NCBI RefSeq assembly: GCF_009914755.1
Contig: NC_060928.1
Length of the DNA stretch: 64,000 nt
Source of the DNA: the human T2T-CHM13v2.0 reference genome, Homo sapiens
Strand: one strand, 5' to 3'
Made by a program: the position numbers and the translations under genes. The notes under the pieces are model-generated. The model saw only the letters and a program-made list of their open reading frames with translations. It ran no database searches and was not told the DNA's origin. Shown piece after piece: positions 1-13,897 of this stretch. The first letter of the stretch is position 1, and every line of letters begins with the position of its first letter.

Positions 1-1099
1 AAGAAGATGTTTTTGGACCATTTTCATAAGGGTGTTGCTCTTGCTGATATCTGATATTTCTAATATTTTTGCATGAGTTTACTGTTTCACACAATCTGTT
101 TTTAAAAACCTGTCCTTAAACCTTGGATCTAGAAATGTGGCAATAGGACAAGGCAATTTTCTTTCAAAATAACAAAGTTAGCTCTGACTTTTCATCTGCA
201 TCTCAGTTTTTACCGCATGAACACCCATCTCAGCACCTTCTCTGTAGTCAAATGTTAGAGGACAATGTACGGTATCATGTAAGAAATATTTGCACGTGCA
301 AGATATTTCAGATTAATAATTTCCTCAGTGAGCTCCAAAAGCAAACTACTTTCTGGTCAAACAAACCATTGGCTGTTAGTAAATCCTGTTGTGTTGATAT
401 TTTTGTCCATCAAATATAACATTAAACCTTTATTTTGTTCAAGTAGCCTTTTCAACATGTATAGTTACTATCCCATCCTATTGGAACACCTTGATAAGTC
501 CTTGACAAGATAGTTCAAAAATTTCTTGAAGGTCATAAAACTTGCTTTGGCTGAAGAAGAATGTCGACAGTGACCCACTCTCTCCTCCTTAGGGCTTAAT
601 AATCTTGTTATATTCTTCTGTGCTATAATTACTTTCTGAACACACAACTAAAGGATGTGAACAAAATACTGATTGTGGTACCTAAATTACACATAGCCTT
701 CACTATGTTTGTTCTATTGTCAATATCAGATATGTAACAATTTTTTTCTCTATTCGATAAACATTTCTTCAATCAGATTCACTCTGTTGTTCACCATAAG
801 GGACCCAACATCTCTCGGCAAACTAGTAAACAGGAACAGAGTTGAATTTATCATTAATCCACCAGGAAGTCATACCTTAAAAAAAAAGACATCTGGTTGT
901 CTCTGCATGCCCAAATTTTTTATGTATAATTTACAAAACTAGTATATTTAATGATGTGACTGCCTTTGTGTTCAAGGGAGATTAGAATTCAGGAAGAAAT
1001 TTTTAGTATGTGTTTTTTAAAAGGAACTTTTATCTAAGATTCATGTGCATACCTCAAAAATTCTTCATCTTTAACTATTGAAAATTGTAGACAAGCTTT
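1..1099 (-). pseudogene. Decayed hAT-Ac (ZBED1/ZBED4-like) transposase, catalytic core, fragment 3 of 3; runs off the window start
   Basis: Manual minus-strand translation with frameshifts gives, in hAT order: SIVKDEEF, SFVNYT*KIW, GMTSWWINDKF, DNRTNIVKAM, YFVHIL*L, VGHCRHSSSAKA, QGVPIGWDSNY-MLKRLLEQ (~493-435), ANISYMIP, IATFLDPRFK (144-115). Confidence 0.85.
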
Positions 1100-1349
1100 A
1101 ACAAATTTTGGGGGTGTTTTTTTTGCTTTTTTTAATTTTATTACTATTGTACTTTAAGTTTTAGGGTACATGTGCACAATGTGCCGGTTAGTTACATATG
1201 TATACATGTGCCATGCTGGTGTGCTGCACCCATTAACTGGTCATTTAGCATAGGCATATCTCCTAATGCTATCCCTCCCCCATCCCGCCACCCCACAACA
1301 GGCCCTGGAGTGTGCTGTTCCCTTTCCTGTGTCCATGTGTTCTCATTGT

Positions 1350-4300
1350 TCAATTCCCACCTATGAGTGAGAACATGCAGTGTTTGGTTCTCTGTCCTTG
1401 CGATAGTTTGCTGAGAATGAGGGTTTCCAGTTTCATCGATGTCCCTACAAAGGACATGAACTCATCATTTTTTATGGCTGCATAGTATTCCATGGTGTAT
1501 ATGTGCCACATTTTCTTAATCCAGTCTATCATTGTTGGACATTTGGGTTGGTTCCAAGTCTTTGCTATTGTGAATAGTGCCGCTATAAACATACGTGTGC
1601 ATGTGTCTTTATAGCAGCATGATTTATAATCCTTTGGGTATATACCCAGTAATGGGATGGCTGGGTCAAAAGTATTTCTAGTTCTAGATCCCTGAGGAAT
1701 CACCACACTGACTTCCACAATGGTTGAACTAATTTACGGTCCCACCAACAGTGTAAAAGTGTTCCTATTTCTCCACATCCTCTCTAGCACCTGTTCTTTC
1801 CTGACTTTTTAATGATCACCATTCTAACTGGTGTGAGATGGTATCTCATTGTGGTTTTGATTTGCATTTCTCCGATGGCCAGTGATGATGAGCATTTTTT
1901 CATGTGTCTTTTGGCTGCATGAATGTCTTGAGAAGTGTCTGTTCATATCCTTCACCCACTTTTTGATGGGGTTGTTTGTTTTTTTCTTGTAAATTTGTTT
2001 GAGTTCATTGTAGATTCAGGATATTAGCCCTTTGTCAGACAAGTAGGTTGCGAAAATTTTCTCCCATTTTGTAGGTTGCCTGTTCACTCTGATGGTCGTT
2101 TCTTTTGCTGTGCAGAAGCTCTTTAGTTTAATTAGATCCCATTTGTCAGTTTTGGCTTTTGTTACCATTGCTTTTGATGTTTTAGACATGAAGTCCTTGC
2201 CCATGCCTATGTCCTGAATGGTATTGCCTAGGTTTTCTTCTAGGGTTTTTATGGTTTTAGGTCTAACATGTAACTCTTTAATCCATCTTGAATGAATTTT
2301 TTTATAAGGTGTAAGGAAGGGATCCAGTTTCAGCTTTCTACATATGGCTAGCATTTTTCCTAGCACCGTTTATTAAATAGGGAATCCTTTCCCTATTGCT
2401 TGTTTTGTCAGGTTTGTCAAAGATCAGATGGTTGTAGACATGTGGCATTATTTCTGAGGGCTCTGTTCTGTTCCATTGATTTATATTTCTGTTTTGGTAC
2501 CAGTACCATGCTGTTTTGGTTACTGTAGCTTTGTAGTATAGTTTGAAGTCAGGTAGTGTGATGCCTCCGGCTTTGTTCTTTTGGCTTAGGATTGACTTGG
2601 TGATGTGGGCTCTTTTTTGGTTCCATATGAACTTTCAAGTAGTTTTTTCCAATTCTGTGAAGAAAGTCATTGGTAGCTTGATGGGGATGGAGTTGAATCT
2701 ATAAATTACCTTGGGCAGTATGGCCATTTTCACAATATTGATTCTTCCTACCCACGAGCATGGAATGTTCTTCCATTTGTTTGTATCCTCTTTTATTTCC
2801 TTGAGCAGTGGTTTGTAGTTCTCCTTGAAGAGGTCTTTCACATCCCTTGTAAGGTGGATTCCTAGGTATTTTATTCTCTTTGAAGCAACTCTGAATGGGA
2901 GTTCACTCATGATTTGGTTCTCTGTTTCTCTGTTATTGGTGTGTAAGAATGCTTGTGATTTTTGCACATTGATTTTGTATCCTGAGACTTTGCTGAAGTT
3001 GCTTATCAGCTTAAGGAGATTTTGTGCTGAGACAATGGGGTTTTCTAGATATACAATCATGTCATCCTCAAGCAGGGACAATTTGACTTCCTCTTTTCCT
3101 AATTTAATACCCTTTATTTCCTTCTCCTGCCTAATTGCCCTGGCCAGAACTTCCAACACTATGTTGAATAGGAGTGGTGAGAGAGGGCATCCCTGTCTTG
3201 TGCCAGTTTTCAAAAGGAATGCTTCCAGTTTTTGCCCATTCAGTATGATATTGGCTGTGGGTCTATCATAGACACCAGTTATTATTTTGCGATACGTCCC
3301 ATCAATACTTAATTTATTGAGAGTTTTTAGCATGAAGGGTTGTTGAATTTTGTCAAAGACCTTTTCTGCATCTATTGAGATAATCATATGGTTTTTGTCT
3401 TTGGTTCTGTTTATATGCTGGATTACATTTATTGATTTACATATGTCAAACCAGCCTTGCATCCCAGGGATGAAGCCCACTTGAACATGGTGGATGAGCT
3501 TTTTGATGTGCTGCTGGATTTGGTTTGCCAGTATTTTATTAAGGATTTTTGCATCAATGTTCATCAAGGATATTGGTCTAAAATTCTCTTTTTTTGTTGT
3601 GTCTCTGCCAGGCTTTTGTATCAGAATGATGCTGGCCTCATAAAATGAGTTAGGGAGGATTCTCTCTTTTTCTATTGATTGGAATAGTTTCAGAAGGAAT
3701 GGTACCAACTCCTCCTTGTACCTCTGGTAGAATTTGGCTGTCAATCCATCTGGTCCTGGACTTTTTTTGGTTGGTAAGCTATTGATTATTGCCACAATTT
3801 CAGAGCATGTTTTTGGTCTATTCAGAGATTCAACTTCTTCCTGGTTTAGTCTTGGGAGGGTGTATGTGTCCAGGAATTTATCCATTTCTTCTAGATTTTC
3901 TAGTTTATTTGTGTAGAGGTGTTTGTAGTATTCTCTGATGGTAGTTTCTATTTCTGTGGGATCAGTGGTGATATCCCCTTTATCATTTTTTATTACGTCT
4001 ATTTGATTCTTCTCTCTTTTCTTCTTTATTAGTCTTGCTAGCAGTCTATCGATTTTGTTGATCCTTTCAAAAAACCAGCTCCTGGATTCATTAATTTTTT
4101 GAAGGGTTTTTTGTGTCTCTATTTCCTTCAGTCCTGCTCTGATCTTAGTTATTTCTTGCCTTCTGCTAGTTTTTGAATGTGTTTGATCTTGCTTTTCTAG
4201 TTCTTTTAATTGTGATGTTAGGGTGTTAATTTTGGATCTTTCCTGCTTTCTCTTGTGGGCGTTTTGTGCTATAAATTTCCCTCTACACACTGCTTTGAAT

Positions 4301-13630: not shown

Positions 13631-13764
13631 GCATAGGTAAAATACATATTGTGGAAGGCAAAATCATGTTTAGATGTGTAAAAGCCTATTGTAGGAGAAT
13701 AATACAGTACAGGGTAGCAAAGAATTAAAGTGCATAAAAATGCATAAAATAAAATTTTTTTAAA

Positions 13765-13897
13765 AAATTATTTTTTATAAATATTGACGAGTATGATTGA
13801 GTCCTTTATCACTGTGAAATTTTGAGTTGCTAAAGTTAACATTCTGCTTTTAATCTATCCTCACAAGATGTGAAGAAATCACAAATAAAACACTCAT
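13765..13897 (-). pseudogene. Decayed hAT-Ac transposase, fragment 1 of 3 (N-terminal BED zinc finger)
   Basis: Minus strand: candidate ATG at 13897 (out of frame), then FICDFFTSCEDRLKAEC*L*QLKIS...IFIKNN. This fits the BED pattern W-x-F-F...A-x-C-x2-C...H-L with decay and joins fragment 2 across the L1MA TSD. Confidence 0.6.

What the first reader, a model, noticed from the sequence alone, without database searches (positions are those of the whole stretch)
1..13897. Hidden BED-finger hAT-Ac (ZBED1/ZBED4-like) transposase fossil split into three by L1 insertions
Seen: joining 13897-13765, 7495-7296 and 1099-1 on the minus strand gives about 1.4 kb with hAT motifs in the right order. These are a decayed BED finger (FICDFF...KAEC*L*...KNSLQ*RH), IVKTFVKACLQ-SIVKDEEF, the catalytic-region DN, YFVHIL*L (consensus CFAHTLQL), VGHCRHS, QGVPIGWDSNY-MLKRLLEQ (consensus QDVPTRWNSTYxML.RLLEQ) and IATFLDPRFK. 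The frame runs straight through the L1PA4 TSD, and the L1MA TSD joins fragments 1 and 2. Known: this architecture defines Ac-family transposases and the domesticated single-exon ZBED genes; long coding copies of this clade are uncommon among primate DNA-transposon fossils. Inference: it is either a rare autonomous master of an ancient hAT family or a dead domesticated ZBED paralogue. It predates the L1MA insertion. The ORF track misses it completely.
Basis: partly seen in the sequence, partly recalled or inferred. Interest (0 to 1): 0.8.

Follow-up and report, generated by a model that had tools for sequence, protein, structure and literature searches.

The report
Decayed hAT transposon split by L1s
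This is a real but long-dead copy of an ancient cut-and-paste (hAT, ZBED-like) transposon, broken into three pieces by two later L1 insertions; it is an ordinary genomic fossil, not a hidden gene.

Summary
On the minus strand, 13897-13767, 7495-7296 and 1099-1 form one decayed BED-finger hAT transposase once the two L1 elements are removed. A profile built from 14 full-length BED+hAT proteins aligns colinearly. Positions 8-197 align in a single frame across both L1 junctions (E 2.9e-11), 270-408 at E 9e-23 and 417-483 at E 2.2e-8. The opposite strand gives E >= 0.7.

The nearest proteins are named ZBED4-like or ZBED1-like by their sources. The same profile matches three human ORFs whose places fit ZBED4, ZBED6 and ZBED1. 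The Ac-type/ZBED-like label therefore holds.

It is not a dead domesticated gene. The human genome holds at least 21 other dispersed fragments at 66-79% DNA identity, plus 14 over the BED part. The protein-level matches are broken by stops, apart from one short stretch. This copy has 16 in-frame stops in 384 aligned codons and at least two frame changes.

The C-terminal dimerisation domain lies left of the window and is only faintly visible. No TIRs or 8-bp TSD were recovered. The likely catalogued family is OldhAT1 (Dfam, hAT-Ac), but I could not test that. Interest is low.

The parts
13767..13897 (-). hAT fossil, piece 1. It holds the first half of the BED zinc finger (FICDFF..KAEC*L*). The last 12 bases (13778-13767) are one copy of the older L1's target-site duplication.
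   Evidence: The profile alignment starts at window 13889. 14 other genomic copies match 13891-13805 at 74-85% identity. TSD located.
7496..13766 (+). Older full-length L1 with broken ORFs, inserted into the BED finger of the hAT element in the opposite orientation.
   Evidence: 8011-13633 aligns at 83% identity to positions 596-6172 of the younger L1. ORF1 domains lie at 8896-9477 and RVT_1 at 10819-11646. It is flanked by ATAAAAAATAAT / ATAAAAATAGT.
7296..7495 (-). hAT fossil, piece 2. It holds the second half of the BED finger (NSLQ*RH NKEYEE) and the linker. The first 11 bases are the second copy of the older L1's TSD. The last 10 bases are a copy of the young L1's TSD.
   Evidence: It lies inside the single-frame alignment to profile positions 8-197. 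Copies L049 and L011 align across the piece 2/piece 3 junction.
1100..7295 (-). Younger full-length L1 in the same orientation as the hAT fossil. ORF2 is broken into pieces. 1100-1109 is the TSD copy.
   Evidence: Transposase_22 at 5297-6163, Exo_endo_phos at 4711-5169 and RVT_1 at 2635-4701. The 5' end GGGGGGTGGAGCCAAGATGG lies at 7295 and the A-rich tail at about 1110-1135.
1..1099 (-). hAT fossil, piece 3. It holds the N-terminal domain, the catalytic core (DIDNRTNIVKAM, YFVHIL*L, GWDSNY/MLKRLLEQ) and the LDPRFK block. The element continues about 370 bases left of the window.
   Evidence: Profile positions 270-408 match 667-254 (E 9e-23) and 417-483 match 236-36 (E 2.2e-8). Ten of ten full-length hAT proteins hit the core (window 680-231) at E 2e-9 to 5e-16.

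Best explanation
An autonomous-type copy of an ancient, long-extinct hAT DNA transposon inserted here. It belongs to the Ac family, the same broad clade as the progenitors of ZBED1, ZBED4 and ZBED6. It encoded an N-terminal BED zinc finger, an RNase-H-like catalytic core and a C-terminal dimerisation domain, and it moved by cut-and-paste. It then decayed neutrally. An older L1 inserted by target-primed reverse transcription into the BED finger. A younger full-length L1 inserted later, 200 bases downstream. About 1.8 kb remains, running from the BED finger to traces of the C-terminus, and it has no function of its own. The family is probably the one catalogued in Dfam as OldhAT1. What is shown: homology, colinearity, nesting order, multi-copy status and decay. 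What is inferred: the family name, the age, and the absence of any present function.
For: 1. Whole-library statistics. phmmer of one frame gave 64 hits at E <= 1e-3 in 1.84e9 proteins. Of the 30 I scanned, 25 carry hAT-linked Pfam families.

2. Colinear profile alignment. Positions 8-197 align in one frame through both L1 junctions (31.0 bits, E 2.9e-11). Positions 270-408 score 69.0 bits (E 9e-23) and 417-483 score 21.5 bits (E 2.2e-8). The N-terminal and 417-483 stretches were out of frame in the query that selected the profile members, so they are independent of that selection.

3. The BED spacing is restored exactly once the older L1 and one TSD copy are removed.

4. Other copies are colinear over several pieces (L011, L008). 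L049 and L011 align straight across the piece 2/3 junction.

5. Multi-copy family. There are 21 non-self DNA matches at 66-79% identity and 14 more on the BED part. There are 12 and 7 non-self protein-level matches, all with internal stops except one 65-residue stretch.

6. Decay. There are 16 stops in 384 aligned codons and at least two frame changes. The first catalytic Asp is replaced by Lys. Two of the four zinc ligands are lost.

7. Ac/ZBED-like clade. ZBED1, ZBED4 and ZBED6 are placed in the Ac family in passages of PMC3606216.

8. No gene is annotated here (hub note).
Against: - Direct Pfam scans of the raw frames gave only one sub-threshold hAT hit: PF14372, 15.2 bits against a cut-off of 27, E 0.026.
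- The word-indexed protein search found nothing: 737 candidates, none at E <= 0.01.
- The PDB sequence search gave only a chance hit.
- Similarity to the human ZBED ORFs themselves is weak: tblastn E 0.035-0.096, though colinear.
- The C-terminal dimerisation domain is not statistically detectable (best E 0.24; no Pfam hit).
- No TIRs or 8-bp TSD were found, so the ends of the element are undefined.
- Frame continuity across the older L1 junction depends on taking the 12-base rather than the 11-base TSD copy.
- The one published OldhAT1 fragment I could locate (chr19, L060) shows no similarity to this element or its copies. The family name therefore rests on class, length and age only.
- In-frame stops (4.2%) are still about half the 8.4% expected from base composition, so decay is heavy but not saturated.
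Confidence: 0.9

Rival explanations
1. A dead domesticated ZBED paralogue. On this view a host gene derived from a hAT transposase was once under selection at this locus and later became a pseudogene.
For: The fossil lies in the same clade as ZBED1/4/6. It is the best-scoring decayed hit of its clade in a genome-wide search with P0007: 47.2 bits against 42.8 or less for four of the five other stop-bearing hits, with only chr7:151.5M (50.6 bits) higher. In-frame stop density is about half the compositional expectation.
Against: The sequence has dispersed DNA-level relatives at 66-79% identity on many chromosomes, and the protein-level matches are broken by stops. This is the signature of a repeat family, not of a unique gene. 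Its amino-acid identity to the three human ZBED ORFs (20-23%) is lower than to most of the transposase-like proteins compared (17.6-30% over 192 columns). It has 16 stops, frame changes and a lost catalytic Asp. The ranking is biased, because P0007 was chosen as this fossil's own best hit. No gene or pseudogene is annotated here.
Confidence: 0.04
2. A copy of an ancient hAT-Ac family that is not yet in Dfam or Repbase, so the family itself would be uncatalogued.
For: I could not run Dfam. The only published OldhAT1 fragment I could locate does not match this family. The hub's list of the 20 longest masked stretches holds none within 1-1099.
Against: The human repeat library is very thorough. 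A family with at least 35 BLAST-detectable fragments is unlikely to have been missed. OldhAT1 fits in class (hAT-Ac), length (2848 bp) and fragmentation (passages of PMC6224067; bioRxiv 10.64898/2026.04.14.718546). The chr19 fragment is short and may lie in a non-coding part of the consensus. The hub's list names only stretches of 404 bases or more, so shorter masked pieces would not appear.
Confidence: 0.1
3. Chance assembly. On this view the three pieces are unrelated AT-rich sequence, or fragments of different elements, that happen to carry hAT-like words.
For: The individual motifs are short and the DNA is AT-rich. Raw-frame Pfam scans are almost blank.
Against: E-values of 9e-23, 2.9e-11 and 2.2e-8 occur in the correct order on one strand, against E >= 0.7 on the other. 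One frame and the exact BED spacing run across the junction. TSDs flank both L1s. Other copies are colinear over the same pieces.
Confidence: 0.01

Closest known systems
OldhAT1 (Dfam DF000001275), an ancient hAT-Ac DNA transposon of tetrapod genomes
   Same: It shares the hAT-Ac class. Its consensus (2848 bp) has the size of an autonomous element. It is very old and highly fragmented in human, with conserved blocks separated by poorly conserved stretches. Here too, the matches from other copies fall in about five blocks along the fossil. The OldhAT1 facts come from passages of PMC6224067, bioRxiv 10.64898/2026.04.14.718546 and a table row of PMC5331655.
   Different: Membership was not tested, because no Dfam model or consensus was available. 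The chr19 OldhAT1 fragment from PMC6224067 shows no similarity. If this is OldhAT1, the copy would be unusual in spanning all the conserved blocks. The preprint reports that fragments rarely span more than two and that no full-length insertion was found.
Human ZBED4, ZBED6 and ZBED1 (domesticated Ac-family hAT transposases)
   Same: The domain order is the same: BED finger, catalytic core, LDPRFK block. The profile built from the fossil's nearest proteins matches these three ORFs over their full length, at E 4e-183, 1e-128 and 4e-106.
   Different: Those genes are intact, single-copy and annotated. This sequence is a stop-ridden member of a dispersed repeat family, and it is only 20-23% identical to them over 192 columns. 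The gene names for the three ORFs come from their chromosomal places (Table 1 of PMC3606216) and from recalled protein lengths.
Active or recently active hAT-Ac transposases annotated as 'ZBED4-like' or 'ZBED1-like' in fish, insects and Hydra
   Same: These are the best full-length matches: 26-30% identity over the aligned columns and tblastn E down to 5e-16. Their architecture is zf-BED plus Dimer_Tnp_hAT.
   Different: They have open reading frames. The fossil does not, and it lacks a detectable dimerisation domain and termini.

Membership tests
hAT superfamily transposase (Ac family) | N-terminal BED zinc finger (CxxC ... HxxxxH) | tested here: met
   It is aligned to profile positions 8-60 with exact spacing once the older L1 is removed. 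Ligands: C kept, C changed to a stop, H changed to S, H kept. It forms part of a 31-bit, E 2.9e-11 alignment.
hAT superfamily transposase (Ac family) | RNase-H-like catalytic core with the DDE triad and the CxxH and RW(N)S blocks in order | tested here: met
   The core matches at 69 bits, E 9e-23. Ten of ten full-length hAT proteins hit it. The first Asp is replaced by Lys (TxKIW). The second Asp-Asn block (DIDNRTNIVKAM) is retained but only weakly aligned (E 0.027). The catalytic Glu was not located.
hAT superfamily transposase (Ac family) | C-terminal hAT dimerisation domain (PF05699) | tested here: inconclusive
   Only traces lie in the expected place, 0-370 bases left of the window (..PL.KWSKN..YPEF....SAQSE..). 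The best E is 0.24 and Pfam gives no hit.
hAT superfamily transposase (Ac family) | Short terminal inverted repeats and an 8-bp target-site duplication | tested here: inconclusive
   No 13-mer inverted match with at most 1 mismatch exists between the 5' and 3' zones. No upstream homology among three copies extends beyond 13888. This is expected for such old DNA, but it leaves the ends unknown.
hAT superfamily transposase (Ac family) | Closer to Ac-family members (ZBED1/4/6-like) than to other hAT lineages | tested here: met
   The profile of the nearest proteins matches the chr22, chr1:203M and chrX ORFs at E <= 4e-106. It matches the chr7:151.04M ORF at only 4e-8, and the chr1:35M and chr11:76M ORFs at 0.06-0.07. 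Source names are 'ZBED4-like' and 'ZBED1-like'.
OldhAT1 (Dfam DF000001275) | Match to the family's Dfam model or consensus above threshold | not testable with these tools
   No Dfam or Repbase library is on hand. The indirect test with the chr19 fragment of PMC6224067 found nothing.
Domesticated ZBED gene or its pseudogene | A unique locus rather than a member of a dispersed repeat family | tested here: not met
   There are 21 non-self DNA matches on many chromosomes and 14 more on the BED part. The protein-level matches carry stops, except one 65-residue stretch.
Domesticated ZBED gene or its pseudogene | Orthologues with an intact ORF under purifying selection in other species | not testable with these tools

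The most novel reading that the evidence does not exclude
This may be the most complete surviving coding copy of the ancient hAT-Ac family (probably OldhAT1) in the human genome. Once the two L1s are spliced out, it spans the BED finger, the catalytic core, the LDPRFK block and traces of the C-terminus. A 2026 preprint reports that no full-length insertion of that family is recoverable and that fragments rarely bridge more than two conserved blocks. If so, the copy could anchor a better model of the tetrapod-age autonomous element and of its relation to the ZBED4/ZBED6 progenitor.
Probability: 0.25. Interest if true: 0.3.

Novelty: already known. Interest (0 to 1): 0.15.

Why it matters
It matters little. 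The fossil illustrates nested transposon history, with a hAT element first, an old L1 next and a young L1 last. It also shows that splicing out later insertions can restore a long colinear transposase fossil that ORF finders and raw-frame Pfam scans miss. At most it is a useful long exemplar for modelling an ancient hAT-Ac family related to the ancestors of the ZBED genes. It is not a new gene, a new family or a new mechanism.

Tried and rejected
- Raw-frame Pfam scans of the nine frame translations gave only PF14372 at E 0.026. The weak WWE_4 and NEPRO_N hits are taken as chance.
- The PDB sequence search gave only a chance hit, a P450 side-chain cleavage enzyme at E 0.18.
- The word-indexed protein search gave nothing.
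- tblastn with six human hAT-derived ORFs was too weak to decide on its own.
- A genome search by alignment was not accepted. I used the single protein P0007 instead.
- Hunt for the dimerisation domain left of the window: not significant.
- Hunt for TIRs and for upstream homology among copies: nothing.
- Test of the OldhAT1 name through the chr19 fragment printed in PMC6224067: I located the locus, but it shows no similarity to the fossil, its copies or the hAT profile. The only matches in that locus are to another repeat shared by many loci, which I take to be Alu. The result is inconclusive.
- A DNA search with the 1 kb left of the window hit only other, more abundant repeats, at 452-625 and 768-990 bases left of the window. 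Nothing matched in the first 450 bases.
- The FastTree placement used 192 columns, showed no support values and put the fossil on a very long branch. I use it only as a hint.
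Full report
**What is there.** The window is T2T-CHM13 chr4:78554001-78618000 (hub note; confirmed). I read the three claimed pieces on the minus strand and translated them in three frames. These are the decayed BED finger (FICDFF..KAEC*L* in 13897-13765 and KNSLQ*RH in 7495-7296), IVKTFV|KACLQFSIVKDEEF across the 7296/1099 join, DIDNRTNIVKAM, YFVHIL*L, VGHCRHS, QGVPIGWDSNY/MLKRLLEQ and IATFLDPRFK.

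**The interruptions.**
- 1100-7295 is a full-length L1 on the minus strand. ORF1 domains lie at 5297-6163, the endonuclease at 4711-5169 and the reverse transcriptase at 2635-4701, and ORF2 is broken.
- 7496-13766 is an older full-length L1 on the plus strand. 8011-13633 aligns at 83% identity to positions 596-6172 of the younger one. Its ORF1 lies at 8896-9477 and RVT_1 at 10819-11646.
- Both are flanked by target-site duplications. For the young L1 these are AACATTTGTT (7305-7296) and AAAATTTGTT (1109-1100). For the older L1 they are ATAAAAAATAAT (13778-13767) and ATAAAAATAGT (7495-7485).
- I could not check the subfamily names L1PA4 and L1MA.

**Is it more than chance?** Direct tests on raw frames were nearly blank:
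- Pfam gave only hAT-like_RNase-H at 15.2 bits, E 0.026, below the cut-off.
- The PDB search gave a chance hit.
- The word-indexed search gave nothing.
- tblastn with six human hAT-derived ORFs gave only weak, though colinear, hits for three of them (E 0.035-0.096).

The exhaustive phmmer search of one frame of 1-1097 against 1.84 billion representatives settled the question. It returned 64 proteins at E <= 1e-3, with full-length-type hits from 2e-9. I scanned 30 of the 64 with Pfam. Of the 30, 18 carry Dimer_Tnp_hAT, 13 carry zf-BED and 25 carry at least one hAT-linked family. Three had none and two had unrelated families.

Ten of ten full-length hits then matched the core (window 680-231) by tblastn at E 2e-9 to 5e-16. 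Two of them also aligned their first ~200 residues in one frame from 13910/13862 to 860/884 (E 0.006 and 0.001).

A profile HMM of 14 full-length hits (628 positions) gave four colinear matches on the spliced minus strand:
- Positions 8-197 align to window 13889 through 7495-7296 to 875 in a single frame (31.0 bits, E 2.9e-11).
- Positions 270-408 align to 667-254 (69.0 bits, E 9e-23).
- Positions 417-483 align to 236-36 (21.5 bits, E 2.2e-8).
- Positions 481-560 give a weak tail running into the DNA left of the window (E 0.29).

The reverse strand scored E 0.74-0.82. The profile members were picked by similarity to the core, so the core score is partly circular. The N-terminal and 417-483 segments were out of frame in the selecting query, so they are independent.

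**Anatomy in detail.**
- With the older L1 and one TSD copy removed, the BED finger regains exact spacing. The first Cys is kept, the second Cys is now a stop, the first His is Ser and the last His is kept, followed by a conserved KEYEE.
- This in-frame reading needs the 12-base version of the TSD. With the 11-base copy there would be a one-base shift.
- The first catalytic Asp (TtDiW) reads TxKIW.
- The second Asp-Asn block is retained (DIDNRTNIVKAM) but aligns only weakly (E 0.027).
- The CxxH block reads YFVHIL*L.
- The RWNS block is split by a frameshift.
- LDPRFK is intact.
- There are 16 stops in the 384 aligned codons (4.2%). Base composition predicts 8.4%, and the frames read straight through the same span on either strand show 5.5-8.8%.
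- At least two frame changes separate the aligned blocks.

**Ends of the element.** I fetched 10 kb left of the window. In the expected place, 0-370 bases to the left, there are traces of the dimerisation domain (..PL.KWSKN..YPEF....SAQSE..). They are not significant (best E 0.24; no Pfam hit). Two other copies (L013, and L020 with its overlapping loci L044 and L056) match this stretch at the DNA level. Beyond about 450 bases to the left, other, more abundant repeats begin. No TIRs, 8-bp TSD or upstream homology among copies could be found. About 1.8 kb of the element is recognisable.

**Repeat family or lone pseudogene?**
- The genome holds 21 other DNA matches to 1-1099 at 66-79% identity on many chromosomes.
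- There are 14 more matches to the BED part at 74-85%.
- There are 12 and 7 non-self protein-level matches. All have internal stops except one 65-residue stretch.
- These counts are lower bounds.
- Copies L011 and L008 are colinear with pieces 1 and 3. L049 and L011 align straight across the piece 2/3 junction.
- Other copies carry decayed hAT segments too, and the best of them scores 64.6 bits for one block.
- A genome-wide search with P0007 returned 14 matches. Intact ORFs came first, and this fossil then ranked second among the stop-bearing hits, at 47.2 bits behind chr7:151.5M at 50.6. That ranking is biased, because P0007 was chosen as this fossil's best hit.

The multi-copy, uniformly broken pattern is that of a transposon family, not of a unique dead gene.

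**Which clade?** Relatives of P0007 are named by their sources 'zinc finger BED domain-containing protein 4(-like)' or 'ZBED1-like' in fish, insects and Hydra. The profile matches the human ORFs on chr22 (1171 aa, E 4e-183), chr1:203M (979 aa, 1e-128) and the chrX pseudoautosomal region (694 aa, 4e-106). It barely matches three other hAT-derived ORFs.

By their chromosomal places these three are ZBED4, ZBED6 and ZBED1 (Table 1 of PMC3606216; the protein lengths are recalled). Passages of that paper place these genes in the Ac family. A quick tree on 192 columns put the fossil on a long branch near the chr22/chr1 group. Identity to the human genes is only 20-23%, against 17.6-30% across the transposase-like proteins, most of which are higher. 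No support values were shown, so this is a hint only.

**Known family?** From memory I suspected OldhAT1. Three papers in the library hold the name.
- Passages of PMC6224067 call it a hAT-Ac DNA transposon of 2848 bp.
- Passages of the preprint 10.64898/2026.04.14.718546 give Dfam DF000001275 and a Tetrapoda age. They describe extreme fragmentation, five conserved regions rarely bridged by one fragment, and no full-length insertion in human.
- A table row of PMC5331655 lists 1897 instances.

Class, size and fragmentation fit, and here too the matches from other copies fall into about five blocks. I could not test membership. The chr19 fragment printed in PMC6224067, located, shows no similarity to this family. 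That is inconclusive for a 171-base piece of unknown position in the consensus. The preprint's supplements are closed and might list the instances.

**Verdict.** It is wrong to leave open a dead domesticated gene. This is an ordinary, very old DNA-transposon fossil, most likely already covered by the human repeat library. Its only mild distinction is its length once the L1s are spliced out.

Noticed in passing
outside the window: G000 C4:78687261-78688001 (loci L012/L046/L058): A second decayed copy of the same hAT family lies about 133 kb to the right of the window start, also matching on the minus strand. Identity is 66-68% at the DNA level, and there are many stops.
   Followed up: partly
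window 13968-14300, minus strand: Directly 5' of the fossil lies a stretch of about 330 bases ending in ...CAGCAGCATCTGTA. From memory it looks like a small non-autonomous Tigger/MER-type DNA transposon. If so, it may hide or displace the hAT element's 5' end. I did not test it: the inverted-repeat scan failed on a strand error, and the genome search covered only its last 33 bases and found nothing there.
   Followed up: no
G000 C8:38594105-38595175 (L065/L073): This locus has a 165-aa open frame that is 51% identical to the dimerisation domain of the ZBED4-like protein P0007 (70.8 bits). Upstream lies a stop-ridden match to residues 128-297. It looks like another partly decayed Ac-type hAT relic, or a truncated domesticated piece.
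   Followed up: no
G000 C9:126248051-126248827 (L071) and C7:151508244-151508909 (L067): Two further matches to P0007 have long open frames. One is 514 aa with no stop inside the match; the other is 438 aa with two stops inside the match. They are probably known hAT-derived genes or pseudogenes, but I did not identify them.
   Followed up: no
0 to about 990 bases left of the window (L021:9001-10000): The stretches 452-625 and 768-990 bases left of the window start belong to other, much more abundant old repeats. There are 36 non-self genomic matches at 69-88% identity. They bound the hAT fossil on its 3' side.
   Followed up: partly
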